IMG/VR virus record: IMGVR_UViG_3300037508_001402
DNA from: an uncultured virus (IMG/VR IMGVR_UViG_3300037508_001402)
Lineage: Duplodnaviria > Heunggongvirae > Uroviricota > Caudoviricetes
DNA: 20,000 nucleotides
Strand: one strand, 5' to 3'
Every line of letters starts with the position of its first letter. The first letter of the stretch is position 1. The position numbers and the translations under genes were made by a program. This document shows positions 1-16,841 of the stretch, in pieces. Under the pieces are notes generated by a model that saw nothing but the letters and a program-made list of their open reading frames with translations, made no database searches and was not told the DNA's origin.

Positions 1-336
1 TTTGATTACAGGCTCAGGATCTGGGTACCCATTTGCCAAAGAGAAGGCTTGCGCATCTTCCCAGCGAGTGAACAACTTAGGCTTTTTGCCAGGGATGTTG
101 ACCGACCACTTGCTGACCTGTTGCAAAAGCGCAGTTTCAACCGCTTGGGTCTGGCTCATCTTCCAAGCCACAGCCAGGGCCTTTTTGGCTGCCAGCGCAG
201 CAGCAGACAGGCGCATTGATGTTGAGCCTGATTGTTTTACCTTGGCAGACTTCGCACCCTTGGGCTTACCCCAAGGCAGGCCCTTTTCGCTTGGGTCTCT
301 GGGCTTGCGCCCTGACTTTCCTTTTACTCCAGACAT
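1..336 (-). CDS. Ribbon-helix-helix (CopG/Arc-like) DNA-binding protein, 3' end runs off window
   Basis: Not in the ORF track; translated by hand. ATG at 336 follows a GAGGAGG RBS and overlaps the ibrB end. Sequence MSGVKGKSGRKPRDPSEKG...STSMRLSAAALAAKKALAVAWKMSQTQAVETALLQQ has a basic N-tail, then a beta-strand/helix/helix RHH-like pattern. Open to position 1. Confidence 0.6.
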   Translation of the reverse strand, partial: MSGVKGKSGRKPRDPSEKGLPWGKPKGAKSAKVKQSGSTSMRLSAAALAAKKALAVAWKMSQTQAVETALLQQVSKWSVNIPGKKPKLFTRWEDAQAFSLANGYPDPEPVIK

Positions 337-992
337 GGTTCCACCTCCTCATAAGATGCTTCCCAGGCTTCAGAGAAATCACGATCAGCAAACAGTTCAG
401 CAAGGCCTGAGATTTGTTTGAGACGAAGAACCTCGTCAGGCTCCATGCCCAGCTCTTTAGCAATCTTCTGATCGTTCCAATTGCGGCGGGCAAGGTCTTG
501 CACGATCTCTGACATGGCGTCAACCTTATGTTTGCCCCTTGCGCGATTGTGGCGAATGGTAGAGGCCATGCGATCATTAAGGTCTTGCCGATCAGCTTTA
601 ACCAGGGTGATGGGCAGATAGCCACGGACACGGGCGCAGACCGCTTTGTCTTCTTTGCCTACCCTGTTACGATGGAACCCGTCAATCACCTCATAATACC
701 CGTTTGTTCCCCAGGCCACGATAGGCTGAGTATAACCGTCCTCAGAGATACTGTGAGCCAAGAGCTTCATCTCAGGCGGAGCCACGCTGTTGGGGTTGTA
801 ATCATTTGCCTCAACAGAGTCATTTTTAACCCACAGCACACAGTCCACTGGTTCATCACGCATGGGGCTGGCTTCGTGCAGGGCCTGACGAATTTCGTTT
901 AATACTGTGATGGCGGTCTCTGGATCAAGGGCTGCAATTTCAGCGGCCAATTCTTTGCCTTTCTCGATCAGGCTTGATTCAAACAGGTTCAT
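324..992 (-). CDS. ibrB: IbrB-like ParB/Srx N-terminal domain protein
   Basis: Motifs EPVDCVLWV, ANDYNPNSVAPPEMKLLAHSISEDGYTQPIV, EVIDGFHR, ASTIRHNRARGKH and LGMEPDEVLRLKQISGL are typical of IbrB/YbdM. Start moved to ATG 992 (GGAGA RBS); the track start at 1256 overlaps ibrA. Confidence 0.9.
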   Translation of the reverse strand: MNLFESSLIEKGKELAAEIAALDPETAITVLNEIRQALHEASPMRDEPVDCVLWVKNDSVEANDYNPNSVAPPEMKLLAHSISEDGYTQPIVAWGTNGYYEVIDGFHRNRVGKEDKAVCARVRGYLPITLVKADRQDLNDRMASTIRHNRARGKHKVDAMSEIVQDLARRNWNDQKIAKELGMEPDEVLRLKQISGLAELFADRDFSEAWEASYEEVEPCLE

Positions 993-1045
993 AGTTGTTT
1001 CTCCATTTTCGTGTATTTCTTTAAATTCGAGGGCTTCATTGGCAA

Positions 1046-2242
1046 TCAAATGTAACTCCATTTTGCTCTTCTCTTTTTCATGATTTTTTTGTACTGAAAA
1101 TATGCCGTGGACTTGGTGGGGCTGAAAGACAAGCTCTTTGCCCAGTAATCGTTTTTCAAAAGCATCTTGCAAATTCGCTTCCAACTTGGGGAGCTTTTGT
1201 CTGTCGGTCCATCGTCGGGGATCGCGCCAAACTGAAACCCCCGCATGTGGTACCAATTCAGGAACACAGAGATCTTGTTTTCATAATGCTCTCTGGTTTG
1301 AGGCGGTAGGCTTTCAAGCAGTAGCTTTGCAAAGCTCTCCCAGGTGTGGCCTTCGGGCTTTGATATGGTGATCCGTCCCAAGATGTTGCCCGACTCGCTG
1401 GCATACAGCGCCCCCTGGTTTGCACCATTGACACGCGCCACAATCTTGCTCCATGTCTCAGGCTCAATCACATGATAGAGCCACAATCCCCGGCGCTGAT
1501 CGTCTCCGTAGGGCTGGCAGATGCGGGCTTGATGAATGGTGAGCCCGGCCCGGTGCATCCGGTCATACAGTTTGTTGTAGGACTTTTCAGGGAATTTGCC
1601 GTGATACGTCCAGATGTCCTCTGTGCGCCAATCATAAATTGGGTATGCGTTATACACGCCCCCGCTTTTCCAGGTTGTCCATTTAAAGCCCTGGTAATTG
1701 CTGCCCCCTGCAATAGCTCTGAAGCGGTTCAGCGATTCATCAGAGCGAATCCCCACAAAACAGCAGGTCAACTGACCGTTGCCATACCAGTGGCCAAAAT
1801 GCTCGATAAACTCTTCAAACTCCATGGCGTAGGTATAAAAGGGGAATTTTGCCTGATCAGTGATCGCGTATTTCGGAGGGGTACGAACCCAATCAGCCTC
1901 TCTGCCTGGCTCCCAACAGACCCATTGGGGCTCAAACTGACTGACGGCATTGCGCAGATGGATGGGCAGAGATACCCAAAAGGGCTCAATGTGCAGGCCA
2001 TACTCTTTGAATGTCGCGTCAATATGCTCGATAGTGAATTTATACTGTGCTTCGAGGTCGATAAACAAAAGCCCGATCTTGCGATTGCGCCTGATCGCCT
2101 CCTCCATGACAAGGTGCAGCATCACGGTTGAATCTTTCCCGCCTGAATAGCTCAGGTAGATTTTAGGGAAATCATCAAAGGCTTTTGCTATGCGCTGACG
2201 GGCAGCGGTTAAAACATCCATTCCAAGGCCAATTTTAGGCAT
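1046..2242 (-). CDS. ibrA: IbrA-like PAPS-reductase-family (PP-loop) protein with DUF3440-type C-terminus
   Basis: PP-loop SYSGGKDS, FIDLEAQY, GIRSDESLNR, YPIYDW, RICQPYGDDQRRGL and SWKRICKMLLKNDYW. Start moved to ATG 2242 (MPKIGLG, GGAGG upstream), overlapping the upstream gene's stop. Confidence 0.9.
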   Translation of the reverse strand: MPKIGLGMDVLTAARQRIAKAFDDFPKIYLSYSGGKDSTVMLHLVMEEAIRRNRKIGLLFIDLEAQYKFTIEHIDATFKEYGLHIEPFWVSLPIHLRNAVSQFEPQWVCWEPGREADWVRTPPKYAITDQAKFPFYTYAMEFEEFIEHFGHWYGNGQLTCCFVGIRSDESLNRFRAIAGGSNYQGFKWTTWKSGGVYNAYPIYDWRTEDIWTYHGKFPEKSYNKLYDRMHRAGLTIHQARICQPYGDDQRRGLWLYHVIEPETWSKIVARVNGANQGALYASESGNILGRITISKPEGHTWESFAKLLLESLPPQTREHYENKISVFLNWYHMRGFQFGAIPDDGPTDKSSPSWKRICKMLLKNDYWAKSLSFSPTKSTAYFQYKKIMKKRRAKWSYI

Positions 2243-2606
2243 TTTCTTCCTCCAGTTTTGTTCTTTGTCCGAGGATAGAATCAACTTCCTCTTGGGTGAT
2301 CTCGACGATCTGCGCTTCTCGCACTTGGCAGAAATAGCGTTTAAAATTGCGCCAACTGATTTGCTCTTGCACCTGGTAGACTTTGCCCTCGTCGAGCAGA
2401 TACCAGCAGTAGACGCCCCGTGTTCCTCTTGAGTTTGAATGCGTGTAATCGCGTTTGCGCTCAATAAACTTGCGGCGATAACCGTCAGGGGTGTGCCCCA
2501 AGATTTCAGCGACCCATGGGTTTTTTTTGCGCATGGCGGCTTTTTCGCTTTCGCGCTTGTAAAGCTGATTGACATCAAAATATTCTAGGGATAGCGTGGT
2601 TTTCAT
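2235..2606 (-). CDS. Conserved hypothetical protein of the type found upstream of ibrAB
   Basis: 123 aa, coupled on both sides. Pattern PWVAEILG...RDYTHSNSRGTRGVYCWYLL..G.VY.V....SW....RYFC recalled from ibrA-adjacent proteins; not search-verified. Confidence 0.75.
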   Translation of the reverse strand: MKTTLSLEYFDVNQLYKRESEKAAMRKKNPWVAEILGHTPDGYRRKFIERKRDYTHSNSRGTRGVYCWYLLDEGKVYQVQEQISWRNFKRYFCQVREAQIVEITQEEVDSILGQRTKLEEENA

Positions 2607-4307
2607 TTACAGCTCCAGAAATATTTCAGCATTGGATTGGTATTTCTCGCAGGCAGATTGAACCCGCTCCCAGAGTTCAACAGAGTCAGGAACACGCTTG
2701 CCCACTGCCCCGGCCCCACCTGTGCGCACATTGTTGATTGCCCAAAAATCACCATCATGACCATTGTTGACCACAGCCCAGATATGGGATTCTGTGCGCA
2801 CAAACCAGCGACCGCCACCATAAATGTTTTGGGGGTCAAAAGGAAAGTCAATGCGTGAACCCTCAAGCTCGACAGGATGATCGTAATCACCCACAGTTTC
2901 ACCGTCTTTCATAATCTGTGAGTGGATGGCGGTCAATTCAGCGGAGGCCTGCTTGCGCTCTGTTTTGCGGGCATCCTCAGCCAAAAGCGGGGCTGATTCA
3001 TCTTCGGTGGCCAATACATACTCATAACGGGTATACCATGGCATATCTTCATCAGGGCTGCCAAAGCTCAGGGGCTCTTGGGTATATTTCGGCTCCTCAA
3101 CGCGAACCACTTTGATGATCTCTTTGGTGCCATTGAGACGATTTTTGCGCATGATTTGACCCTCTTGGATAGGCGCATATCTTGAAGCACTCCAGGCAGT
3201 ATCACAAGAGACACCCTGAGCAGCCCGCTGGGTTCTGCGCTCTGCTTCTCTGTCTGCCATTTCTTTGATCTTGGCGGTCTGTTTGGCTTCTTTGTCTTCA
3301 AAGATTTTGCGGATCTTTGTCAGGGCTTGACGAGATTCTTCGAGGTTTTCAAATGGCAGCAACCAAGCTTTTTTGGTTCCGTTGTACTCACGTCCTTTGA
3401 CTGACCGGGCAATCTCAACAGCATCAGGCTCATACGGGAAAGCCACACTGATGTATTGACCTTCACGGCTCAAGGCATAGTGAACAGAGCGAAACTCTTC
3501 AAAGATCCCAGGCCAGGCTTGTTCTGAAAATTCCAAGAGTTGTTGTTTGGTGGCGGCTTTCTCAGCAAAGAACCCGCGAATGTCTTCAATCGCTTTTTTA
3601 ATTGCTTCGGCATTGTCACCAGTGACATCAATAACCCAGCGGTTCATCATCTCAGGTTGAAACTTAAACCCGGCCAATTTAGCGATTTCTGAAGCAGATG
3701 AACTTTTGGGCATCACCAAGATCAACTGAGTTGTGTGAAAGGAATTAAACACAACCTCAACGCCCAAATGCTTACCGCAAATAGATTTAAGGCTCTCTGC
3801 TGCAATCATGGATTGCTGACGGGTATAAGCCTCATCAGCAAGTTTTTGGGCCTGCTCTTTGTTTGCTTTCTTATCACGAGCTGCCAAGGTCTTTTTGACT
3901 TTCAAGGCAACCTCTTCAGCCTCTTCAGCATCAAGCACAGTCTGGAGTGCCCATACGTTTGCATAGGAGTTATAACGGGCTCCGGGGCGCGTGACATCAA
4001 TTTTGCCCTCAGACTCGCCCAGGTGATCTGTAATCATTTTTGCGGTCCAGCCACGGGCCTCGATCTCTTTTTTCTTGATCCAGCCCTCAGCAGGGGGAGC
4101 AACAAGAAAATCCTCAATTTCAAAATCTTCAATTGACTCCCACTCAGCAGGGATGTCAATACGGAAGTGGGCCATGTCGCTGCCCAGAACGTAAAAATAC
4201 TGCCCGTCCAAATTGGTGAGCAGCATTTTTTTATTGGGGTTCTTTGTGCGAAAGAATTTGACAGCGGCCCCGGTCTGGATGCTATCTTTGAGTTGAGTTA
4301 AATTCAT
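2607..4307 (-). CDS. 566-aa multidomain hypothetical protein with HARP-like repeats
   Basis: Long ORF with AAGGAG RBS. Segments VAFPYEPDAVEIARSVKGREYNGTKKAWLLP and AKLAGFKFQPEMMNRWVIDV resemble HARP/DUF5710-like modules. C-terminal IYGGGRWF...NNGHDGDFWAINNVRTGGAGA block. Confidence 0.8.
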   Translation of the reverse strand: MNLTQLKDSIQTGAAVKFFRTKNPNKKMLLTNLDGQYFYVLGSDMAHFRIDIPAEWESIEDFEIEDFLVAPPAEGWIKKKEIEARGWTAKMITDHLGESEGKIDVTRPGARYNSYANVWALQTVLDAEEAEEVALKVKKTLAARDKKANKEQAQKLADEAYTRQQSMIAAESLKSICGKHLGVEVVFNSFHTTQLILVMPKSSSASEIAKLAGFKFQPEMMNRWVIDVTGDNAEAIKKAIEDIRGFFAEKAATKQQLLEFSEQAWPGIFEEFRSVHYALSREGQYISVAFPYEPDAVEIARSVKGREYNGTKKAWLLPFENLEESRQALTKIRKIFEDKEAKQTAKIKEMADREAERRTQRAAQGVSCDTAWSASRYAPIQEGQIMRKNRLNGTKEIIKVVRVEEPKYTQEPLSFGSPDEDMPWYTRYEYVLATEDESAPLLAEDARKTERKQASAELTAIHSQIMKDGETVGDYDHPVELEGSRIDFPFDPQNIYGGGRWFVRTESHIWAVVNNGHDGDFWAINNVRTGGAGAVGKRVPDSVELWERVQSACEKYQSNAEIFLEL

Positions 4308-4336
4308 GGGGCATCTCCTTTTAGTGTGATACCCCT

Positions 4337-4365
4337 ATTTTATTATGTATTTTATAAAATTGCAA
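4337..4365 (-). promoter_or_regulatory. Sigma70-like promoter for the 566-aa/ibrAB operon
   Basis: Minus strand TTGCAA (4365-4360), 17 nt, TAAAAT (4342-4337) in an AT-rich gap, about 30 nt upstream of ATG 4307. Confidence 0.6.
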
Positions 4366-4378
4366 TACGTTTATAAAA

Positions 4379-4894
4379 TTATTTCTGTCTTTGCGCCAAA
4401 TCAACCAGATCACGGGTCTCGATTTCGAGAAGCCTGTTAGTGGCTGCGTGGACGGCTTCAGCAGGAAAAAAGTTTTTGCTTTGTTCAGTAATTGCTGTGT
4501 GCAATTTTTGGCCAAATTTATTGGGCATGGTCAACTGTCGAATCACAACCACTTTTCCAGTGTTGGCATCGAGAAGATACACGGTCAAAACTGGCATTTG
4601 GGTCTCTGTTAAAACAGGAGGGATTGCCCGTCTATCCTCTGGCATGGCCCAATAGCTAAAAAAAGCATCACACCAGGGCTGTGAGCCAAACTTAAACAGC
4701 AAAACCAGCGTCTCAGGCTGCACATAAACCTGGAATTTAACAGGCCCTTTGCGGATGTCTTCAATCTCTTGGGCTGTCGGTGAGCCATACATCATAATCA
4801 GCTCATGGCCTACATCATAATAGTTGTACTCATTGCGCTCAGGTAGTTCTGTCCTGTTTGGGAAAAAGAGATCGCCGATACCGATTGCGTGCAT
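4379..4894 (-). CDS. Hypothetical protein (171 aa)
   Basis: Start moved to ATG 4894 (GGAGA RBS, just after the upstream stop at 4897). Globular-looking sequence (LLFKFGSQPWCDAFF, LLDANTGKVVVIRQL). Confidence 0.75.
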   Translation of the reverse strand: MHAIGIGDLFFPNRTELPERNEYNYYDVGHELIMMYGSPTAQEIEDIRKGPVKFQVYVQPETLVLLFKFGSQPWCDAFFSYWAMPEDRRAIPPVLTETQMPVLTVYLLDANTGKVVVIRQLTMPNKFGQKLHTAITEQSKNFFPAEAVHAATNRLLEIETRDLVDLAQRQK

Positions 4895-5983: not shown

Positions 5984-6352
5984 TTAGTTAGAGCGAGGGG
6001 TAACATGGGACTCCCCACACTTGGCGCACTTGGCGCTGCTGACAATATTGAGGGCGTCTGCCACGGGCAGGCTCACCCACTCATGGGTACAGGTTTGGGC
6101 CTGGGCGGCTTGGTGATAGGCGGCAAACTCAGCAGCCTTGATCTCCTTGCCTGCGTTTATTTCTGCAATGGCAGCAGAGATGAACTGGGCGATCTTGCGC
6201 TCTGCTTCGGCGATGCTTTTGGCCTCAAGGTTGAACGTCATGCCTTGGTGCTGGGCTTTGATCTCGATGCCAGACAGGCCCTTGATCGCATCAAAGTACA
6301 TCAGGCCACGGCTTGCACTCCAACCTGTGGGGGTCTTTTTGAGTTTGAGCAT
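5984..6352 (-). CDS. Hypothetical protein with C-terminal Zn-ribbon-like motif; first gene of leftward operon
   Basis: ATG 6352 follows GAGGTG (the track starts at GTG 6361). CTHEW...CAKCG motif. Confidence 0.7.
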   Translation of the reverse strand: MLKLKKTPTGWSASRGLMYFDAIKGLSGIEIKAQHQGMTFNLEAKSIAEAERKIAQFISAAIAEINAGKEIKAAEFAAYHQAAQAQTCTHEWVSLPVADALNIVSSAKCAKCGESHVTPRSN

Positions 6353-6374
6353 CTTGGGCACCTCTGTTTGTTTC

Positions 6375-6475
6375 TTATGTTATCCATACTAACATAACAG
6401 ACAGGGGTAAATCAAGATATTTTTATACTGTGATTGATTATTCGTTGACAATATTTGGTTAGTGAGGTTAACATA
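6375..6475. promoter_or_regulatory. Divergent promoter pair with two related operator-like inverted repeats
   Basis: Leftward: TTGATT (6415-6410), 18 nt, TGn-TAGTAT (6391-6386). Rightward: TTGACA (6445-6450), 18 nt, TAACAT (6469-6474). TTATGTTA-N7-TAACATAA (6375-6397) and TTGGTTA-N7-TAACATA (6455-6475) each overlap a -10 box. Confidence 0.6.
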
Positions 6476-6480
6476 GTGGT

Positions 6481-6798
6481 ATGAGTCACAAAAATCTTGA
6501 ACAAGAAGCTGTTATGCTGGTTTTGAATAAGTCAAACCTCCATGAATTTGGGTTTGATGAAAAAGGAAATCAGTTGAGATACATTCGGTTTTCCGCTGAA
6601 AACATCAAGCAGCTTAGAAAAGAACTCGCTCTGTCGCAGGATAAGCTCGCTTCAGCTATGGACGTGGCCAGAACCACGATCACCCATTACGAATCAGGCT
6701 ACTTAGACAAGCCCTCTTTCGAGATTTTATTGCAACTTGGCAAAGTGTTCTCAGAGCTTGCAGGGTACAAAATCGTATTCTACGCAGACTGGGAATAG
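6481..6798 (+). CDS. XRE-family HTH transcriptional regulator (repressor/Cro-like)
   Basis: IKQLRKELALSQDKLASAMDVARTTITHYESGYLDKPSFEILLQLGKVF is an HTH_3 pattern. Confidence 0.85.
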   Translation: MSHKNLEQEAVMLVLNKSNLHEFGFDEKGNQLRYIRFSAENIKQLRKELALSQDKLASAMDVARTTITHYESGYLDKPSFEILLQLGKVFSELAGYKIVFYADWE

Positions 6799-7047
6799 CC
6801 TTTAGCAGCGTGACTCATGCGCTGTGAACCTTGACAAAAATCAGACCCCCAAAAGTGGGCACGGCCCCTGAAGCCTTGGAGCTTACCCACCTTTCAGCTC
6901 CTACGGTGGCGAGCAGCGTGGCTTGCGCTTATGGTTATTGGTGCAAGCGTTGGCTGTAAGGCTGTTAGATTCAGCCTGTAACCGAATCACTGTGATCTCC
7001 TCTCGCAGTGTTGGCCGTGCTTTCCTTTGGGGGCCTGAGATGATTAT

Positions 7048-7117
7048 TGGCATGTAGCTCAGTGGTAGAGTCCCGTTCTGGACTTGGGAGGTCGCAGGTT
7101 CAAATCCTGCCCGGCTG
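7048..7117 (+). tRNA. tRNA-like element 1 (pseudo; bulged anticodon arm, possible CTG loop; own acceptor strands do not pair)
   Basis: TA-GCTC-AGTGGTA-GAGT D arm and GCAGG-TTCAAAT-CCTGC T arm. The 5' strand TGGCATG is not complementary to the 3' strand CCGGCTG. Confidence 0.55.
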
Positions 7118-7121
7118 TAAT

Positions 7122-7192
7122 GGCCGCGTAGCGCAGTAGGGAGCGCGCCCAAAATAGGCGGAGGGTCGCAGGTTCGATTCCTGCCTTGCCGA
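7122..7192 (+). tRNA. tRNA-like element 2 (pseudo; shortened anticodon arm, no U33; own acceptor strands do not pair)
   Basis: TA-GCGC-AGTAGGGA-GCGC D arm and GCAGG-TTCGATT-CCTGC T arm. Anticodon-position hairpin GCC-CAAAATA-GGC. The 5' strand GGCCGCG is not complementary to the 3' strand CTTGCCG. Confidence 0.55.
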
Positions 7193-7399
7193 CTATCCAA
7201 GAAAAATCCACAGAGGCAACCGTGCCCAATTTGGGACACCTGCCATATTGATGAGCAGCCTGTGGACGGCAGCCTGCGAAATTAGCTTTTTATCGCAAAC
7301 ACTGAGCAAAGGACGCTTTGAGCGGTGGGGATTGCTGGGAATACAAAAGCCGGAGTAAGGCACGAAAGCCTCACCGTAGATCTTCGGGTCTGCGGTTTT

Positions 7400-7472
7400 G
7401 CCCCCGAAGCTCTTGGGTAAGAGCGCTCCTGCAATACGGGAAAGGATGCAAGTTCGAGTCTTGCCGGGGGTT
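7400..7472 (+). tRNA. tRNA-like element 3 (complete cloverleaf, non-canonical anticodon loop, no encoded CCA)
   Basis: Acceptor GCCCCCG/CGGGGGT, D arm GCTC-TTGGGTAA-GAGC, T arm GCAAG-TTCGAGT-CTTGC. A instead of U at position 8; loop GCAATAC lacks U33. Confidence 0.6.
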
Positions 7473-7558
7473 CTCCCAGAAATGGGAAACAATTAACAAA
7501 TCGCCAATAGGCGTGAGGGTTAATTGCTCGGGTTCGTTTCGTTAAAGGAAAGATATAG

Positions 7559-7586
7559 GCCGGGGTCATGTGGCCCTGGCTTTTTT
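7559..7586 (+). terminator. Intrinsic terminator
   Basis: GCCGGGGTC-ATGT-GGCCCTGGC followed by T6. Confidence 0.65.
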
Positions 7587-7684
7587 GCACCACAAAAGCA
7601 GCATAGCCCTTCTCTGTGCTGCTCTTGCGGGTCAAATAAACATCAAGGAGAGGAAAAGTCCCTTGGCAATTAGGAATGTGTTGT

Positions 7685-7708
7685 TCGGGCAGCCCGCGCC
7701 CGGTTTTT
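7685..7708 (+). terminator. Terminator-like hairpin (repeat copy 1)
   Basis: TCGGGC-7 nt-GCCCGG followed by T5. Confidence 0.4.
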
Positions 7709-7801
7709 GCTCCCAATGACAGCATTGCCTTTCGAGCTTGTGCTGTCTTTAGGGGTAAAAAATACAGCAAAGGAAAAGGGAGAGATCATCGAGTGCATTG
7801 G

Positions 7802-7825
7802 CGGGCCTACCCCTGCCCGGTTTTT
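7802..7825 (+). terminator. Terminator-like hairpin (repeat copy 2)
   Basis: CGGGC-8 nt-GCCCG, then G and T5; shares GCCCGGTTTTTG with copy 1. Confidence 0.4.
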
Positions 7826-7933
7826 GTTCGCAACGGCTGCATGTTTGGCCCGTGCAGCCCTTACGGTCAAAAGCCGTAATAAATTGAAAAGGAGCAGTTT
7901 CTACGTTCTCGAAGTGGTTTAAATTTTTGCAAC

Positions 7934-7962
7934 GGGTCAGGCTAAACCCTGGCCCATTTTTT
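7934..7962 (+). terminator. Intrinsic terminator
   Basis: GGGTCAGG-CTAAAC-CCTGGCCC, then A and T6. Confidence 0.6.
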
Positions 7963-7967
7963 CTCAC

Positions 7968-7994
7968 AAAAAAAGCGGTAGTTCTCGCTACCGC
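7968..7994 (-). terminator. Minus-strand-oriented intrinsic terminator
   Basis: A7 followed by GCGGTAG-TTCTCG-CTACCGC, i.e. hairpin plus T7 when read on the minus strand. Confidence 0.55.
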
Positions 7995-8100
7995 ATTTAA
8001 GATGCGCAGCACATAGTACAACACATCCCAAATAACCATCACCAATATACCACGCTGCGCCTCTCAATTATCACGCCAATCGGCAGAGAGGTCTTTTTAC

Positions 8101-9462
8101 ATGTTTCAACACGTCAAACAGTATCGGCAAAAGCACGGACTCACACAGGAGGCCATGGGCAATCTATTGGGGATGGATGCAAAGTTCATCTGGAATTTAG
8201 AGAAGCACAAGCCACGCATGAGCATCAATGGTGTTCGTGTGGTTTATTCCCCCCAAGAAGAGGTGATGCTGAAATCTGTTTTTGGAGATTCAGCAGACGC
8301 AGGCAAACACCCCAGCTATTTTGAAGGGCTTCCATCCATCACAGGACAAGATCTGTACAGCATCCGCAAACAGAAGCGCATGACGCAGGCTGAGGCGGGT
8401 GAGGTCATTGGTGTATCAGCCGCGCAATGGGGCGTACTCGAAGCAGGCAAAAGCAAAGAGGACACCCCCAACATCCGCCGCTGGTACACATTGCTTCTCG
8501 TTCACCACTTCCCCGAATACTTCCAGCCCACAGAAATGACACTTGCTGACGAATCGCTCATGGTAGAGGCACAGGTTTTGACACCTGAACCCGAACCTGT
8601 TCAGGATGACTTTGCAGATCAGCCCGGCTTGATCCCTTTCGCGTATGGCTCTCAGAAAGTGCGTGTGAAGTGGATTGATGGGGAGCCATGGTTCATGCTT
8701 TTAGATGTCTGCAAAGCCGTTGGATACAAGTCTATCCAACACGCAGCTGAACTTATTCGGGAACGTGACATCCGCAAAGTGGAGTGCGCCGATTCACTTG
8801 GTCGGGTGACTGAAGCAAACTTTGTCTCAGAGCGTGGCATGTCTCAGTTCTTTTTAAGAGCTCGCGTGCCAGCTGTCGAGCAATTTCAGGATTGGGTATT
8901 TGATGAGGTACTGCCATCAGTTTATAAAACAGGCGGCTACCAAGTTAATCAACCTCAGCAGATTCAGGCTTCCATCGATCCCCTTTCTCAGGTGCTGATG
9001 ATTGGCCAGGCACTTCAGACAATTGCCCAACAGATGCAGGCCCAAGCCAGCGAGATCAGTTCTCTCAAAGAGCAGGTTTCCAAAGTCAATTACCTGGAAG
9101 TATCCAAGACCGATCGCTCTGAAGTTCTCGAGATCGTGCAAAGCGAAGTGCTGGAATCAAAGCTCAAAGAGAAACAAGAGCAAAAGATCCACTATCGCAA
9201 GCGCAAAGAGCTTGAAAATCGTGTTTCTGACCTTGGCTGGTCAATCGTGAAGGCTCACGGCGGCAACCATGGGGAAGTTATCAAAGGCATAAACAAGCGA
9301 ATCAAAGCGGCTCTCAGGGGTGTGTATGGATATGCCATTGCCAGGGAGCGGTACACCGATGAAGATTTTGCCCTGGCTTACCAGGTGATCGCAATGGTTG
9401 AAAAAGAGATCAAGGACTTTCCCAAACAGGGAGAAATAAATTTTGATGGAGACGCAGCATGA
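8101..9462 (+). CDS. Antirepressor-like protein: two XRE HTH domains + BRO-N domain + coiled-coil C-terminus
   Basis: HTH motifs VKQYRQKHGLTQEAMGNLLG and IRKQKRMTQAEAGEVIGVSAAQWGVLEAG. BRO-N FAYGSQKVRVKWIDGEPWFMLLDVCKAVGY...FVSERGMSQFFLRAR...FQDWVFDEVLPSVYKTGGY. Confidence 0.85.
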   Translation: MFQHVKQYRQKHGLTQEAMGNLLGMDAKFIWNLEKHKPRMSINGVRVVYSPQEEVMLKSVFGDSADAGKHPSYFEGLPSITGQDLYSIRKQKRMTQAEAGEVIGVSAAQWGVLEAGKSKEDTPNIRRWYTLLLVHHFPEYFQPTEMTLADESLMVEAQVLTPEPEPVQDDFADQPGLIPFAYGSQKVRVKWIDGEPWFMLLDVCKAVGYKSIQHAAELIRERDIRKVECADSLGRVTEANFVSERGMSQFFLRARVPAVEQFQDWVFDEVLPSVYKTGGYQVNQPQQIQASIDPLSQVLMIGQALQTIAQQMQAQASEISSLKEQVSKVNYLEVSKTDRSEVLEIVQSEVLESKLKEKQEQKIHYRKRKELENRVSDLGWSIVKAHGGNHGEVIKGINKRIKAALRGVYGYAIARERYTDEDFALAYQVIAMVEKEIKDFPKQGEINFDGDAA

Positions 9463-16514: not shown

Positions 16515-16841
16515 ATGTTTTTAATTGAATTGAACCCCCAAAGCCTTGCCCTATTATCCCACCTCACAAAGTCACCATTGACCGCTGAGCGAGCTGTAGA
16601 GGTATTCCAATGCACAGCCATCCCCCCTTTCTCAGAGGGGGCTTTTTTATGCCAGTTCACGGGTGACTCTCTGCGAATCCTGCGCAAAGCCCACAAAATG
16701 ACACAGACAGACCTCGCGGCCCTTGTTGGGATGCACAAAACTTACATCTCGCGCTTAGAGTCTGGATACTGCATCAATCCTGGGCTAGACACCCTTGGCA
16801 AATTGGGAGAGGCATTGAATTGTAAATTTATGTTAATCTAG
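16515..16841 (+). CDS. XRE-family HTH regulator
   Basis: LRILRKAHKMTQTDLAALVGMHKTYISRLESGYCINPGLDTLGKLGEAL. Confidence 0.8.
   Translation: MFLIELNPQSLALLSHLTKSPLTAERAVEVFQCTAIPPFSEGAFLCQFTGDSLRILRKAHKMTQTDLAALVGMHKTYISRLESGYCINPGLDTLGKLGEALNCKFMLI

What the first reader, a model, noticed from the sequence alone, without database searches (positions are those of the whole stretch)
6805..8095. ~1.3 kb ORF-free, hairpin-dense RNA locus between repressor and antirepressor: candidate new large phage ncRNA or regulatory leader
Seen: in an otherwise gap-free phage gene string, this stretch has many helices. Examples: 6921-6948, 6959-6977, 6988-7010, 7207-7266 (TCCACAG/CTGTGGA), 7322-7377, the cUUCGg hairpin 7374-7395, the GAAA hairpin 7474-7487, CAATTAAC/GTTAATTG, 7597-7623, GACAGCA/TGCTGTC, 7835-7859 and 7861-7879. 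Mismatches are G-U on the + strand, which favours selection at the RNA level. It also holds 3-4 tRNA-like modules. Known: GOLLD and ROOL are large phage-associated, tRNA-linked ncRNAs, and P1 c4, P4 CI and N15 CA RNAs are processed from leaders that control immunity/antirepressor operons. Inference: either a new ornate ncRNA class or an elaborate RNA-based lysis/lysogeny switch.
Basis: partly seen in the sequence, partly recalled or inferred. Interest (0 to 1): 0.8.

Follow-up and report, generated by a model that had tools for sequence, protein, structure and literature searches.

The report
Phage tRNA-mimic and terminator RNA array
The 1.3-kb gene-free stretch of this lake-water temperate phage is not one giant RNA but a row of small RNA modules (three tRNA look-alikes, five transcription stop signals, a likely antisense RNA) sitting between a regulator gene and an antirepressor gene, and part of it belongs to a small RNA family that no catalogue lists.

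Summary
Observation confirmed. Window 6799-8100 has no credible ORF, folds better than shuffles (z -3.0 to -5.6 for four natural segments), holds 3 tRNA-like elements (Rfam 26.9-38.4 bits; ARAGORN calls none) and is enriched in terminator-like hairpins (13 vs 2.2 expected). It matches no other Rfam family: not GOLLD, ROOL or C4.

It is not one large RNA. Five related loci (3 IMG/VR contigs, 2 contigs in genomes of one phylum) carry the same modules in the same order between an HTH_3 gene and an HTH+Bro-N gene. In 4 of the 5, protein genes lie between modules.

Modules:
- a conserved leader element just after the HTH stop codon;
- tRNA mimics that keep acceptor, D and T arms but lack a usable anticodon arm, two of them nested under one acceptor stem;
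- a conserved T-arm/GNRA-hairpin/hairpin/terminator unit (a model built without the window hits 7448-7589 at 53 bits);
- a triplicated hairpin/purine-box/terminator unit;
- a conserved minus-strand promoter-like box and terminator upstream of the antirepressor gene.

Best reading (about 0.45, mechanism inferred): a terminator-laden, RNase P/Z-punctuated leader plus an antisense RNA gating the antirepressor. Main rival: independent RNA cassettes. No expression data were found.

The parts
6445..6474 (+). Promoter-like site TTGACA-18-TAACAT. It ends 6 nt before the ATG at 6481, so the HTH mRNA would have little or no leader (inferred).
   Evidence: 10 of 12 matches; sequence
6481..6798 (+). HTH_3 (XRE-type) regulator gene, 105 aa. 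Whether it acts like Cro or like CI is not settled.
   Evidence: Pfam HTH_3 E 7.8e-11. PHROGs transcriptional regulator or repressor. The X9 variant has 23 of its 36 listed substitutions here.
6806..6824 (+). Module A, hairpin 1: 5-6 bp with loop GACUCAU. The relatives have a covarying hairpin with GAAA, GCGA or other loops at this place.
   Evidence: sequence; MFE; relatives' alignment, 3 compensatory pairs in this hairpin
6825..6837 (+). Module A, conserved single-stranded 13-mer TGAACCTTGACAA. The pattern TGMACMTTKAMAA fits the window and 3 of the 4 full relatives. L223 carries one extra base and L224 has only a degenerate copy.
   Evidence: It is the only 0-mismatch copy in the window.
6841..7038 (+). 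Module A, stem-loop 2. Here it is a 26-nt long-range stem (6841-6866 with 7013-7038) that encloses about 146 nt with four hairpins. Relatives have a 7-10 bp covarying stem with a 13-17 nt loop at this place.
   Evidence: inverted repeat I1; fold z -4.46; covariation in relatives
7047..7192 (+). Nested pair of tRNA-like elements (TLS1 7048-7118, TLS2 7122-7191). An outer acceptor-like stem, 7048-7054 with 7185-7191, closes both.
   Evidence: Rfam tRNA 32.5 and 26.9 bits. Outer stem 6 of 7 paired, against 5 of 7 for each element's own stem, 3 and 1 of those pairs being G-U. MFE keeps the outer stem. L117 has the same outer stem around a single element.
7195..7373 (+). Structured spacer (module B'). 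7220-7235 is 88% complementary to 6849-6864.
   Evidence: fold z -3.31; inverted repeat I7. No sequence match in relatives.
7374..7399 (+). Hairpin with a cUUCGg loop followed by UUUU, abutting the next tRNA-like element. All relatives have a hairpin plus U-tract directly before their tRNA or tRNA-like element.
   Evidence: sequence; relatives
7400..7472 (+). TLS3, a tRNA-like element. Acceptor stem 7 of 7, D stem 4 of 4, T arm 5 of 5. The anticodon stem has a C-A mismatch and the loop GCAATAC has C at position 33.
   Evidence: Rfam tRNA 38.4 bits. ARAGORN does not call it. Arm counts. T arm plus 3' acceptor strand are 23 of 23 identical to a tRNA-Arg(CCU) gene of G001.
7473..7586 (+). Conserved trailer: GNRA hairpin 7474-7487, hairpin 7490-7526 (inner 7502-7513), then terminator 7558-7580 with U6 at 7581-7586.
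   Evidence: Model R1, built from 4 relatives without the window, hits 7448-7589 at 53.3 bits, E 3e-11, full length. Pair counts.
7581..7708 (+). Repeat unit U1: hairpin 7581-7639, purine box AAGGAGAGGAAAAG 7645-7658, terminator 7685-7703 with U5.
   Evidence: (I2)
7704..7825 (+). Repeat unit U2: hairpin 7704-7761, purine box 7769-7784, terminator 7800-7819 with U5.
   Evidence: (I5)
7818..7962 (+). Repeat unit U3: hairpin 7818-7876, purine box 7886-7897, terminator 7934-7955 with U6.
   Evidence: (I3). The X9 variant has 46 other letters in the hairpin loop.
7968..8052 (-). Predicted minus-strand small RNA. It has an extended -10-like box TGgTATATT (8052-8044), an inferred start near 8037, a terminator hairpin 7994-7975 and a U7 run 7974-7968. 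It is antisense to the antirepressor leader 64-133 nt upstream of the ATG.
   Evidence: - strand terminator. Box and - strand terminator aligned in 5 of 5 loci. The - strand is the more stable one here. Weak PinT-like match, 22.3 bits against a gathering score of 60. The start point is inferred.
8101..9462 (+). HTH + Bro-N protein (antirepressor-like), the first protein gene after the array.
   Evidence: Pfam Bro-N 2e-14 and HTH_31. PHROG 130 'anti-repressor Ant' 1.6e-34.

Best explanation
The stretch is a mosaic non-coding leader of the phage's rightward operon. It is built from separable RNA modules, not from one RNA.

Proposed course of events (inferred):
1. Transcription starts at the promoter-like site 6445-6474 and reads the HTH gene.
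2. It then meets a conserved leader element (module A), a nested pair of tRNA mimics, and a hairpin/U-tract.
3. Next comes a third tRNA mimic fused to a conserved trailer that ends in a terminator.
4. Three diverged copies of a hairpin/purine-box/terminator unit follow.
5. The five successive intrinsic terminators stop most polymerases. The antirepressor-like gene and the SSB and replication genes behind it are therefore made only when terminators are read through or overridden.
6. The tRNA mimics keep exactly the parts recognised by RNase P, RNase Z and the CCA-adding enzyme (acceptor, T and D arms) and have lost a usable anticodon arm. They would be cut out of read-through transcripts. This would uncouple the upstream mRNA from downstream RNA and release stable tRNA-shaped RNAs.
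7. A short minus-strand RNA, made from a conserved promoter-like box to a conserved terminator, is antisense to the antirepressor leader and adds a second brake.

Shown: non-coding nature, the structures, homology and order of modules in six loci, and terminator enrichment.
Inferred: every step about transcription, processing and regulation.
For: Non-coding and structured.

Terminators: 13 terminator-like sites against 2.2 +/- 1.6 expected. The + strand ones lie at 7558, 7685, 7800 and 7934, and 7374-7399 was found by eye.

Same order of parts (HTH_3 gene, module A, hairpin/U-tract, tRNA or mimic, GNRA hairpin, hairpin, terminator, long hairpin, purine box, terminator, - strand terminator, HTH+Bro-N gene) in L117, L001, L002 and L223 and, in part, L224.

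Homology of the trailer: model R1, built without the window, gives 53.3 bits, E 3e-11, full length. The next best hit in the window is 21.8 bits.

Pairing is kept:
- 99% of 105 cells are paired and 3 of 19 pairs change on both sides (the alignment is fitted to the model).
- Module A in 4 relatives: 6 of 18 pairs have compensatory changes.
- The three window units are about 65% identical yet keep their hairpin.

tRNA mimics:
- Acceptor stems are 6-7 of 7 paired in 8 of the 9 closing-stem readings. For L117 the script's register gave 5 of 7; I read 6 of 7 by hand.
- The anticodon arm is aberrant in most. ARAGORN gives 0 in the window and L117, odd loops in L002 and L223, and a true tRNA-Met only in L001.

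Read-through is needed in relatives: ORFs start 25-30 nt after the second terminator with no room for a promoter (L001 4825, L002 2948).

Minus-strand box and terminator are aligned in 5 of 5 loci, and the - strand is the more stable one there.

Precedents:
- Gifsy-1 IsrK terminator read-through in the isrK/anrP locus switches on a downstream gene (PMC4825925, abstract and section headings).
Against: - No expression data. No RNA run is listed for this DNA, so no start, end or processing site is known.
- No antitermination factor or known antiterminator RNA was recognised. PHROGs gave none for 36 ORFs and Rfam gave none.
- The 13-mer agrees with the recalled E. coli rrn boxA at only 9 of 13 positions and has no second copy.
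- No + strand promoter was found between the last terminator and the antirepressor gene, but the scan covers only sigma-70 consensus promoters. The antirepressor gene may have its own unrecognised promoter, in which case the terminators merely end an upstream operon.
- The U-tract of 7374-7399 has only 4 U.
- Covariation rests on six loci, three or four of them close to each other.
- In the relatives the predicted minus-strand RNA would be only about 45 nt, and its promoter box lies inside the arm of a long hairpin. The conservation could therefore serve the + strand leader instead.
- RNase P/Z cleavage of the mimics is assumed from their shape.
Confidence: 0.45

Rival explanations
1. RNA-cassette hot spot. 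The stretch is a row of independent small RNA genes (tRNA mimics and sRNA-like units), each with its own end. They sit in a moron-type insertion site downstream of the regulator gene, as in the tRNA/stable-RNA clusters of lytic phages. The mimics act on the host, for example as decoys for a tRNA-binding or tRNA-cleaving factor. The purine boxes might titrate CsrA. The terminators are plain gene ends, not a gate on the antirepressor.
For: - The occupant of the tRNA slot changes between loci: single mimic, nested pair, 95-nt long mimic, or true tRNA-Met.
- Protein 'morons' are inserted between modules in 4 of 5 relatives.
- The window has three copies of a unit that appears once in L117, L001, L002 and L223 and only in part in L224.
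- The A.GGA motif occurs 5 times in 7540-7965 against 1.26 +/- 1.03 in shuffles, with 1 of 500 shuffles reaching it.
- Both candidate host genomes encode CsrA at 86-87 bits.
- Phage tRNAs with altered anticodon loops have been proposed to evade host tRNA nucleases (PMC10264068, abstract).
Against: - No promoter-like site lies in front of any unit. The hairpin/U-tract abuts the tRNA mimics with 0-2 nt between, leaving no room for one.
- There is only about one GGA box per 120-nt unit, far sparser than in known CsrA sponges (recalled).
- The order of modules and their place between the same two genes is fixed in six loci.
Confidence: 0.27
2. Decaying tRNA gene cluster. The tRNA-like elements are pseudogenes of once functional phage tRNAs, and the rest is spacer with ordinary terminators.
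For: - ARAGORN calls none of the three and one scores below Rfam's gathering score.
- Relatives hold a true tRNA-Met at the same slot.
- The D-to-T distance of single mimics is 22-23 nt, as in a normal tRNA.
Against: - Decay is confined to the anticodon arm. Acceptor stems stay 6-7 of 7 paired with different sequences in different loci, and T arms stay 5 of 5 in 10 of 11 readings.
- The flanking hairpin/U-tract and trailer are conserved.
- Non-tRNA parts fold far better than shuffles.
Confidence: 0.1
3. P1 c4 / P4 CI / N15 CA-type immunity RNA. A small RNA cut from the leader (by RNase P, helped by a tRNA-like shape) pairs with repeated target boxes downstream and blocks antirepressor expression.
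For: - The location is upstream of an antirepressor-like gene.
- tRNA-like shapes that could recruit RNase P are present.
- 7664-7684 is 81% complementary to 8018-8038 in the antirepressor leader (I4).
Against: - No Rfam C4 or isrK match at E <= 10 in 6400-8400.
- Duplex energies between units and the antirepressor leader are not better than shuffles in the window (4 units) or in 4 relatives, z -0.8 to +2.1.
- No icd-like small ORF was seen.
Confidence: 0.07
4. One large ornate ncRNA of a new class, like GOLLD or ROOL.
For: Length, density of helices, nearby tRNA-like elements, phage context, and no protein-coding signal.
Against: - Five internal terminator-like hairpins.
- Modules are separated by genes in 4 of 5 relatives.
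- About half of the stretch (6867-7012 and 7195-7373) has no counterpart in relatives.
- No GOLLD or ROOL match.
Confidence: 0.03

Closest known systems
Phage lambda nutR-tR1 region and the rrn-type boxB-boxA leader (processive antitermination)
   Same: - It sits right after the first gene of the rightward operon and before the delayed genes.
- A hairpin, a conserved single-stranded 13-mer and a second stem-loop lie upstream of terminators.
- In relatives, genes directly behind terminators have no visible promoter.
   Different: - The 13-mer agrees with the recalled rrn boxA at 9 of 13 positions only, and its pyrimidine core differs.
- No N- or Q-like protein was found.
- There are five terminators instead of one.
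- tRNA mimics are embedded in the leader.
- The host rrn leader could not be checked, because G001 has no 16S gene.
Phage P22 sar RNA (antisense control of ant)
   Same: A short RNA predicted from the opposite strand just upstream of an antirepressor gene, ending at its own terminator. The role of sar is cited from PMC5415839 (passage).
   Different: As I recall, sar covers the ant ribosome-binding site. Here the predicted RNA lies 64-133 nt upstream of the ATG and does not cover the Shine-Dalgarno region. There is no sequence relation. Expression is unknown.
Phage T4 species 1 and 2 RNAs (rnaC, rnaD) in the T4 tRNA cluster
   Same: These are small stable RNAs of unknown function that sit with tRNA genes in a phage. 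rnaC (139 nt) has one T arm and a closing stem (annotation, fold).
   Different: - rnaC has one T arm and a long non-tRNA insert. The nested pair here has two D arms and two T arms under one outer stem.
- There is no sequence or Rfam relation. rnaC scores only 17.5 bits to tRNA-Sec.
- T4 is lytic, whereas this array lies in the regulatory region of a temperate phage.
Bacterial Y RNA YrlA (RF02553)
   Same: The T arm of TLS1, the short hairpin between the two elements and the D arm of TLS2 match the permuted tRNA-like module of YrlA. The match covers model positions 19-90 at 30.9 bits.
   Different: - The score is below the gathering score of 69.
- The Ro-binding stem (model positions 1-18 and 91-114) is not matched.
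- No Pfam family at E <= 0.01 in the 566-aa protein 2607-4307 or the other 17 proteins scanned points to an Rsr/Ro60 (TROVE) protein.
- Any two tandem tRNAs with a short spacer would give such a permuted match (inference).
P1/P7 c4, P4 CI and N15 CA RNAs, and Gifsy-1 IsrK (leader-derived RNAs controlling antirepressor operons)
   Same: An RNA-rich leader with a terminator in front of an antirepressor-type gene. IsrK terminator read-through in the isrK/anrP locus switches on a downstream gene (PMC4825925, abstract and section headings).
   Different: No Rfam C4 or isrK match. There is no significant pairing between leader units and the antirepressor leader.

Membership tests
tRNA (RF00005), as functional decoding tRNA | Score at or above Rfam's gathering score of 29 bits | tested here: met
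   TLS3 38.4 bits and TLS1 32.5 bits. TLS2 26.9 bits is below it.
tRNA (RF00005), as functional decoding tRNA | Canonical anticodon arm: 5-bp stem and a 7-nt loop with U33 and a purine at 37, accepted by a tRNA gene finder | tested here: not met
   ARAGORN finds 0 genes in the window. The TLS3 loop GCAATAC has C33 and its stem has a C-A mismatch. TLS1 has C33 or a 9-nt loop. TLS2 has a 4-bp stem with loop CAAAATA.
tRNA (RF00005), as functional decoding tRNA | Paired acceptor stem, D arm, and T arm with a TTCRANY loop | tested here: met
   TLS3 has 7/7, 4/4 and 5/5. The outer stem of the nested pair has 6/7. Both T arms have 5/5.
YrlA / bacterial Y RNA (RF02553) | Full-length match at or above 69 bits, including the Ro-binding stem | tested here: not met
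   30.9 bits, model positions 19-90 of 114 only.
YrlA / bacterial Y RNA (RF02553) | Neighbouring rsr (Ro60, TROVE domain) gene | tested here: not met
   No such Pfam family among the 18 window proteins scanned at E <= 0.01.
C4 antisense RNA family (P1 c4, P4 CI) and N15 CA-type control | Match to the Rfam C4 or isrK models | tested here: not met
   No such match at E <= 10 in 6400-8400.
C4 antisense RNA family (P1 c4, P4 CI) and N15 CA-type control | Leader RNA complementary to target boxes in the antirepressor leader | tested here: not met
   One 21-nt, 81% complementary pair exists. Duplex energies are not better than shuffles in 8 of 8 unit/leader pairs.
GOLLD / ROOL large ncRNAs | Match to the Rfam models, and one contiguous conserved RNA | tested here: not met
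   No match. Modules are separated by genes in 4 of 5 relatives.
nut / rrn boxA-boxB antitermination site | boxA consensus 13-mer | tested here: inconclusive
   9 of 13 positions agree with the recalled E. coli rrn boxA. The pattern fits the window and 3 of the 4 full relatives (L223 has one extra base). The host's own boxA could not be read.
nut / rrn boxA-boxB antitermination site | Cognate antiterminator protein (N-like), or function with Nus factors | not testable with these tools
   No PHROG or Pfam antiterminator among 36 ORFs. N-like proteins are short and poorly conserved.
P22 sar-type antisense RNA | Minus-strand promoter and terminator giving an RNA antisense to the ant transcript | tested here: inconclusive
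   A terminator and an extended -10-like box are conserved in 5 of 5 loci. Transcription is untested.
P22 sar-type antisense RNA | Overlap with the ant ribosome-binding site | tested here: not met
   The predicted RNA spans 8037-7968, while the SD-like GAGAGG lies at 8085-8090 and the ATG at 8101.
   Window 7448-7589: 53.3 bits, E 3e-11, positions 1-138 of 138. G005:C81: 52.1 bits.

The most novel reading that the evidence does not exclude
The tRNA mimics are the functional core. This would make them a new family of phage RNAs that keep only the 'top half' of a tRNA (acceptor, T and D arms). They come in three forms: single, fused to a GNRA-hairpin trailer as an RNA of about 190 nt, or as a nested pair under one acceptor stem. 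They would be made from the regulatory region of a temperate phage and would bind or saturate a host factor that reads tRNA shape rather than the anticodon, such as a processing enzyme or a defence nuclease. That would link the lysis-lysogeny decision or superinfection defence to the host's tRNA machinery.
Probability: 0.2. Interest if true: 0.7.

Novelty: new variant of a known kind. Interest (0 to 1): 0.45.

Why it matters
Temperate-phage switches are mostly described through proteins and a few small antisense RNAs from enterobacterial phages. Here an uncultured freshwater phage lineage devotes 0.75-1.3 kb of its regulatory operon to RNA modules. One contig of this lineage lies in a genome whose record is titled Candidatus Sericytochromatia. 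The modules include anticodon-less tRNA mimics whose shape is kept by compensatory change, and an unusually long run of terminators in front of an antirepressor gene.

If the reading holds, it gives:
- a testable example of stepwise termination plus tRNA-type processing as a gate on prophage induction;
- a new small RNA family (model R1) that can be searched for in metagenomes;
- another case for the long-open question of what tRNA-shaped stable RNAs of phages (T4 species 1 and 2 and the like) are for.

If only the ordinary parts hold, it is a well-mapped regulatory leader.

Tried and rejected
**DNA similarity**
- The phage collection matched only a 61-66-nt tRNA piece in 4 records.
- Plasmids and E. 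coli genomes gave no match.
- No whole genome is held for the window.

**Searches for relatives through the flanking proteins**
- Viral contigs with the antirepressor protein alone: 0 relatives.
- Viral contigs with the HTH protein: 1 locus.
- Viral contigs with the alignment: 2 loci.
- Genome contigs: 11 loci matching only the Bro-N core. Only L004 led on to a relative, via G001.
- Metagenome contigs: 80 loci kept of 272. All matched the Bro-N core only, so none was used.

**DNA patterns in viral contigs**
- 44 stretches, of which 3 had a T arm upstream. These were L117 (new) and two contigs already known.
- 81 stretches, of which only the same three contigs encode the antirepressor.
- My first pattern did not fit the window's own hairpin spacing.

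**Expression and read data**
- Sequencing runs: no RNA holder listed. Seventeen DNA runs are listed, labelled lake water, freshwater or plain metagenome.
- Read laying shows variants only. X9 has no cover at 7204-7471.

**Hypotheses tested and dropped or left weak**
- boxA idea: no second copy in the window. A loose pattern count in G001 was uninformative. G001 has no 16S gene. Paper searches for the recalled boxA letters found no paper holding both terms and 5 papers holding the DNA form, none opened.
- attP idea: TLS3 shares 23 nt with a G001 tRNA-Arg(CCU) gene. I rejected it because the locus is contiguous in all six loci and lies inside an operon, not next to an integrase.
- Small ORFs behind the purine boxes: no consistent start codon by eye. 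ORF 7676-7879 has codon score -0.17.
- c4-like pairing: not better than shuffles.

**Other**
- Earlier notes of this scan: nothing by place or by sequence.
- I did not run protein homologue searches, structure prediction or complex prediction, because the finding is about RNA.


Full report
**What is in the window**

The window is the early/regulatory region of a temperate phage.
- Leftward genes include a ParB-like and a PAPS-reductase-like pair.
- A promoter-like site lies at 6445-6474.
- An HTH_3 gene lies at 6481-6798.
- The queried gap follows.
- After it come an HTH+Bro-N gene (8101-9462, 'anti-repressor Ant' in PHROGs), SSB, a replication initiator and further + strand genes.
- No whole genome is held for the window.
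- The DNA occurs in metagenome DNA runs, most of them labelled lake water. No RNA run is listed.

Coding signal is absent.
- The ORFs inside 6799-8100 have no Pfam family.
- Their codon log-odds are -0.29 to +0.17, against 0.07-0.49 for genes of the window.
- They have no protein-level match in four relatives.
- A variant strain (run X9) is close to identical here but carries single-base deletions at 6995, 7046 and 7885 and a 46-letter replacement in a hairpin loop. The contigs are of low depth, so this is only a hint.

The natural segments fold better than dinucleotide shuffles.
- 6800-7045: z -4.46.
- 7192-7400: z -3.31.
- 7396-7535: z -2.96.
- 7540-8100: z -5.63.
- The tRNA-like pair does not, as is usual for tRNAs.

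Terminator-like hairpins number 13 against 2.2 +/- 1.6 expected in 6300-8300.

The + strand is the better-folding strand everywhere except 7960-8100, where the - strand wins.

Rfam finds three tRNA-like elements and nothing else above noise. ARAGORN accepts none.

**Relatives**

Sequence searches of the phage, plasmid and E. coli collections found nothing beyond a tRNA fragment. Using the flanking proteins, DNA patterns and a genome search, I found five related loci.
- L001 (IMG/VR contig).
- L002 (IMG/VR contig).
- L117 (IMG/VR contig).
- L223 = G001:C312. G001 is the genome that holds L004, whose record title reads MAG: Candidatus Sericytochromatia bacterium.
- L224 = G005:C81, from a sample of the same phylum.

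All of the first four have an HTH_3 gene upstream. L001, L002 and L117 also have an HTH+Bro-N gene downstream (29-44% identical to the window's), and L223 holds its N-terminal start.

The 80 metagenome loci and 10 of the 11 genome-contig loci matched only the generic Bro-N core and were not used.

**Anatomy, 5' to 3'**

(A) The leader element comes right after the HTH stop codon.
- It has a hairpin (6806-6824), a 13-mer (6825-6837) and a second stem-loop.
- The 13-mer pattern TGMACMTTKAMAA fits the window and 3 of the 4 full relatives. L223 has one extra base.
- In four relatives, 6 of 18 predicted pairs show compensatory changes.
- In the window the second stem is a 26-nt long-range helix (6841-6866 with 7013-7038). 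It encloses an extra 146 nt with four hairpins.

(B) The tRNA mimics.
- TLS3 (7400-7472) has perfect acceptor, D and T arms but an aberrant anticodon arm.
- TLS1 and TLS2 (7048-7191) pair poorly within themselves, yet the 5' strand of TLS1 pairs with the 3' strand of TLS2 in 6 of 7 positions.
- L117 has the very same outer stem around a single element.
- L001 has a 135-nt element with two T arms under a perfect 7-bp stem.
- Across loci the slot holds a single mimic, a nested pair, a 95-nt mimic or a true tRNA-Met.
- Acceptor stems stay 6-7 of 7 paired with different sequences, while the anticodon arm is degenerate. It has a 6-nt loop in L223, a 9-nt loop in L117 and no stem in L002.
- Every mimic next to the trailer is directly preceded by a hairpin plus U-tract.

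(C) The trailer.
- It consists of a GNRA hairpin (GAAA, or GCAA in L223 and L224), a second hairpin with a shared AGGCG-G box, and a terminator.
- A covariance model built from the four relatives only (R1) hits window 7448-7589 at 53.3 bits over its full length. The next best hit in the window is 21.8 bits.
- It also finds G005:C81 at 52.1 bits. In 151 genomes of the phylum sample, 6 had E <= 0.001. Only G001 (a training sequence) and G005 are convincing.
- On the model-fitted alignment of six sequences, 99% of cells pair and 3 of 19 pairs change on both sides, all in the T arm.

(D) The repeat units.
- Three diverged copies, about 65% identical, of a unit: U-tract/long hairpin, purine box (AAGGAG-like), variable stretch, terminator.
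- L117, L001, L002 and L223 hold one copy; L224 holds only part of one.

(E) The minus strand, upstream of the antirepressor gene.
- It carries an extended -10-like box and a strong terminator. Both are aligned in 5 of 5 loci.
- In the window this predicts an RNA of about 70 nt from 8037 to 7968.

**Why it is not one large RNA**

- In 4 of 5 relatives, protein genes lie between modules. L002 has DUF4145 and VRR_NUC genes. L223 and L224 have reverse-strand ORFs. L001 has four ORFs.
- L117 alone keeps the modules contiguous, over about 756 nt with no ORF of 54 aa or more.
- About half of the window's stretch has no counterpart elsewhere.
- Terminators cut the stretch five times.

**Mechanism**

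I commit, at about 0.45, to a gated leader.
1. Polymerases starting at 6445-6474 are stopped stepwise by the terminators.
2. The antirepressor and replication genes then depend on read-through or antitermination.
3. The tRNA mimics serve as RNase P/Z cutting points that uncouple and stabilise RNA pieces.
4. The minus-strand RNA adds an antisense brake, in the manner of P22 sar (passage in PMC5415839).

Indirect support comes from the relatives. There, ORFs begin 25-30 nt behind the second terminator with no promoter-like site in between. Gifsy-1 IsrK gives a precedent for terminator read-through in the isrK/anrP locus switching on a downstream gene (PMC4825925, abstract and section headings).

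Module A is a candidate antitermination signal by its position and build. The evidence is thin:
- It agrees with the recalled boxA at 9 of 13 positions.
- It has no second copy in the window.
- No antiterminator protein was found.
- The host rrn leader is not available.

**Rivals**

- Independent RNA cassettes (0.27). Supported by the shuffling of slot occupants, the moron-like insertions, the enrichment of A.GGA boxes (5 against 1.26) and CsrA genes in G001 and G005. Against it: there are no promoters before the units.
- Decaying tRNAs (0.10). Against it: decay is limited to the anticodon arm.
- c4/CI/CA-like control (0.07). There is no Rfam match, and pairing is no better than shuffles.
- A single ornate RNA (0.03).

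**Comparison with known systems**

- The partial YrlA match (30.9 bits against 69) is what two tandem tRNAs give by construction. It lacks the Ro-binding stem and an rsr gene.
- T4 rnaC shares the general idea of a tRNA-framed stable RNA, but neither sequence nor architecture.
- Papers on phage tRNAs offer possible roles for real tRNAs, not for anticodon-less mimics. These are PMC10264068 on evasion of anticodon nucleases and PMC10865867 on tRNA-dependent lysogeny. I read the abstracts only.
- My paper searches listed nothing describing this arrangement. That is two keyword searches, not proof of absence.

**Verdict**

This is a real, conserved, mostly + strand non-coding region. It is a new variant of known kinds: a phage regulatory leader with terminators and antisense RNA, and phage tRNA-shaped RNAs. 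It is not a new giant RNA class. All functional statements await transcript mapping.

Noticed in passing
window 6276-6500: The + strand just upstream of and across the HTH promoter folds much better than shuffles (z -4.19 and -4.43 in two 150-nt windows). A terminator-like hairpin lies at 6317-6334. It may be the end of a leftward/rightward unit or an operator region.
   Followed up: no
window 6503-6735 (HTH gene), run X9: A variant strain is about 10% diverged in the HTH gene (23 of its 36 listed substitutions) but only about 1.5% diverged in the non-coding array and the start of the antirepressor gene. This looks like exchange of an immunity gene. The contigs are of low depth.
   Followed up: partly
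window 7448-7470 and 7164-7185; G001:C299 (L234, L235): The T arm plus 3' acceptor strand of TLS3 is 23/23 identical to a tRNA-Arg(CCU) gene of genome G001. The T arm of TLS2 is 22/22 identical to that of its tRNA-Arg(UCU). This suggests the mimics derive from tRNAs of a host of this kind.
   Followed up: partly
L224 1960-2410 (G005:C81): About 450 nt of GC-rich sequence with no Rfam match at E <= 0.1 lies between a conserved about 110-nt module and a tRNA-Met. The module is also present in L001 at 4320-4440. It is possibly a further structured RNA cassette.
   Followed up: no
window 324-2578 (-): A ParB-like protein (PHROG 2159) overlaps a PAPS-reductase/DUF3440 protein. This is a pair often seen together in phages, and its role here is unknown.
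   Followed up: no
window 7053-7070 joined to 7164-7185, runs X6 and X7: Contigs of other organisms in the same metagenomes join these two pieces through a 20-letter normal-looking anticodon arm. A real tRNA therefore shares the D arm of TLS1 and the T arm of TLS2. The nested pair may have arisen by insertion into such a gene.
   Followed up: no
window 7664-7684 and 8018-8038: The variable part of repeat unit U1 is 17/21 identical to the 5' end of the predicted minus-strand RNA, and so complementary to the + strand leader. By the duplex test this is not significant, and it remains unexplained.
   Followed up: partly
window 16515-16841: A second small HTH_3-type regulator (108 aa) lies among the + strand genes. 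It could be the partner (Cro- or CI-like) of the 105-aa HTH protein.
   Followed up: no
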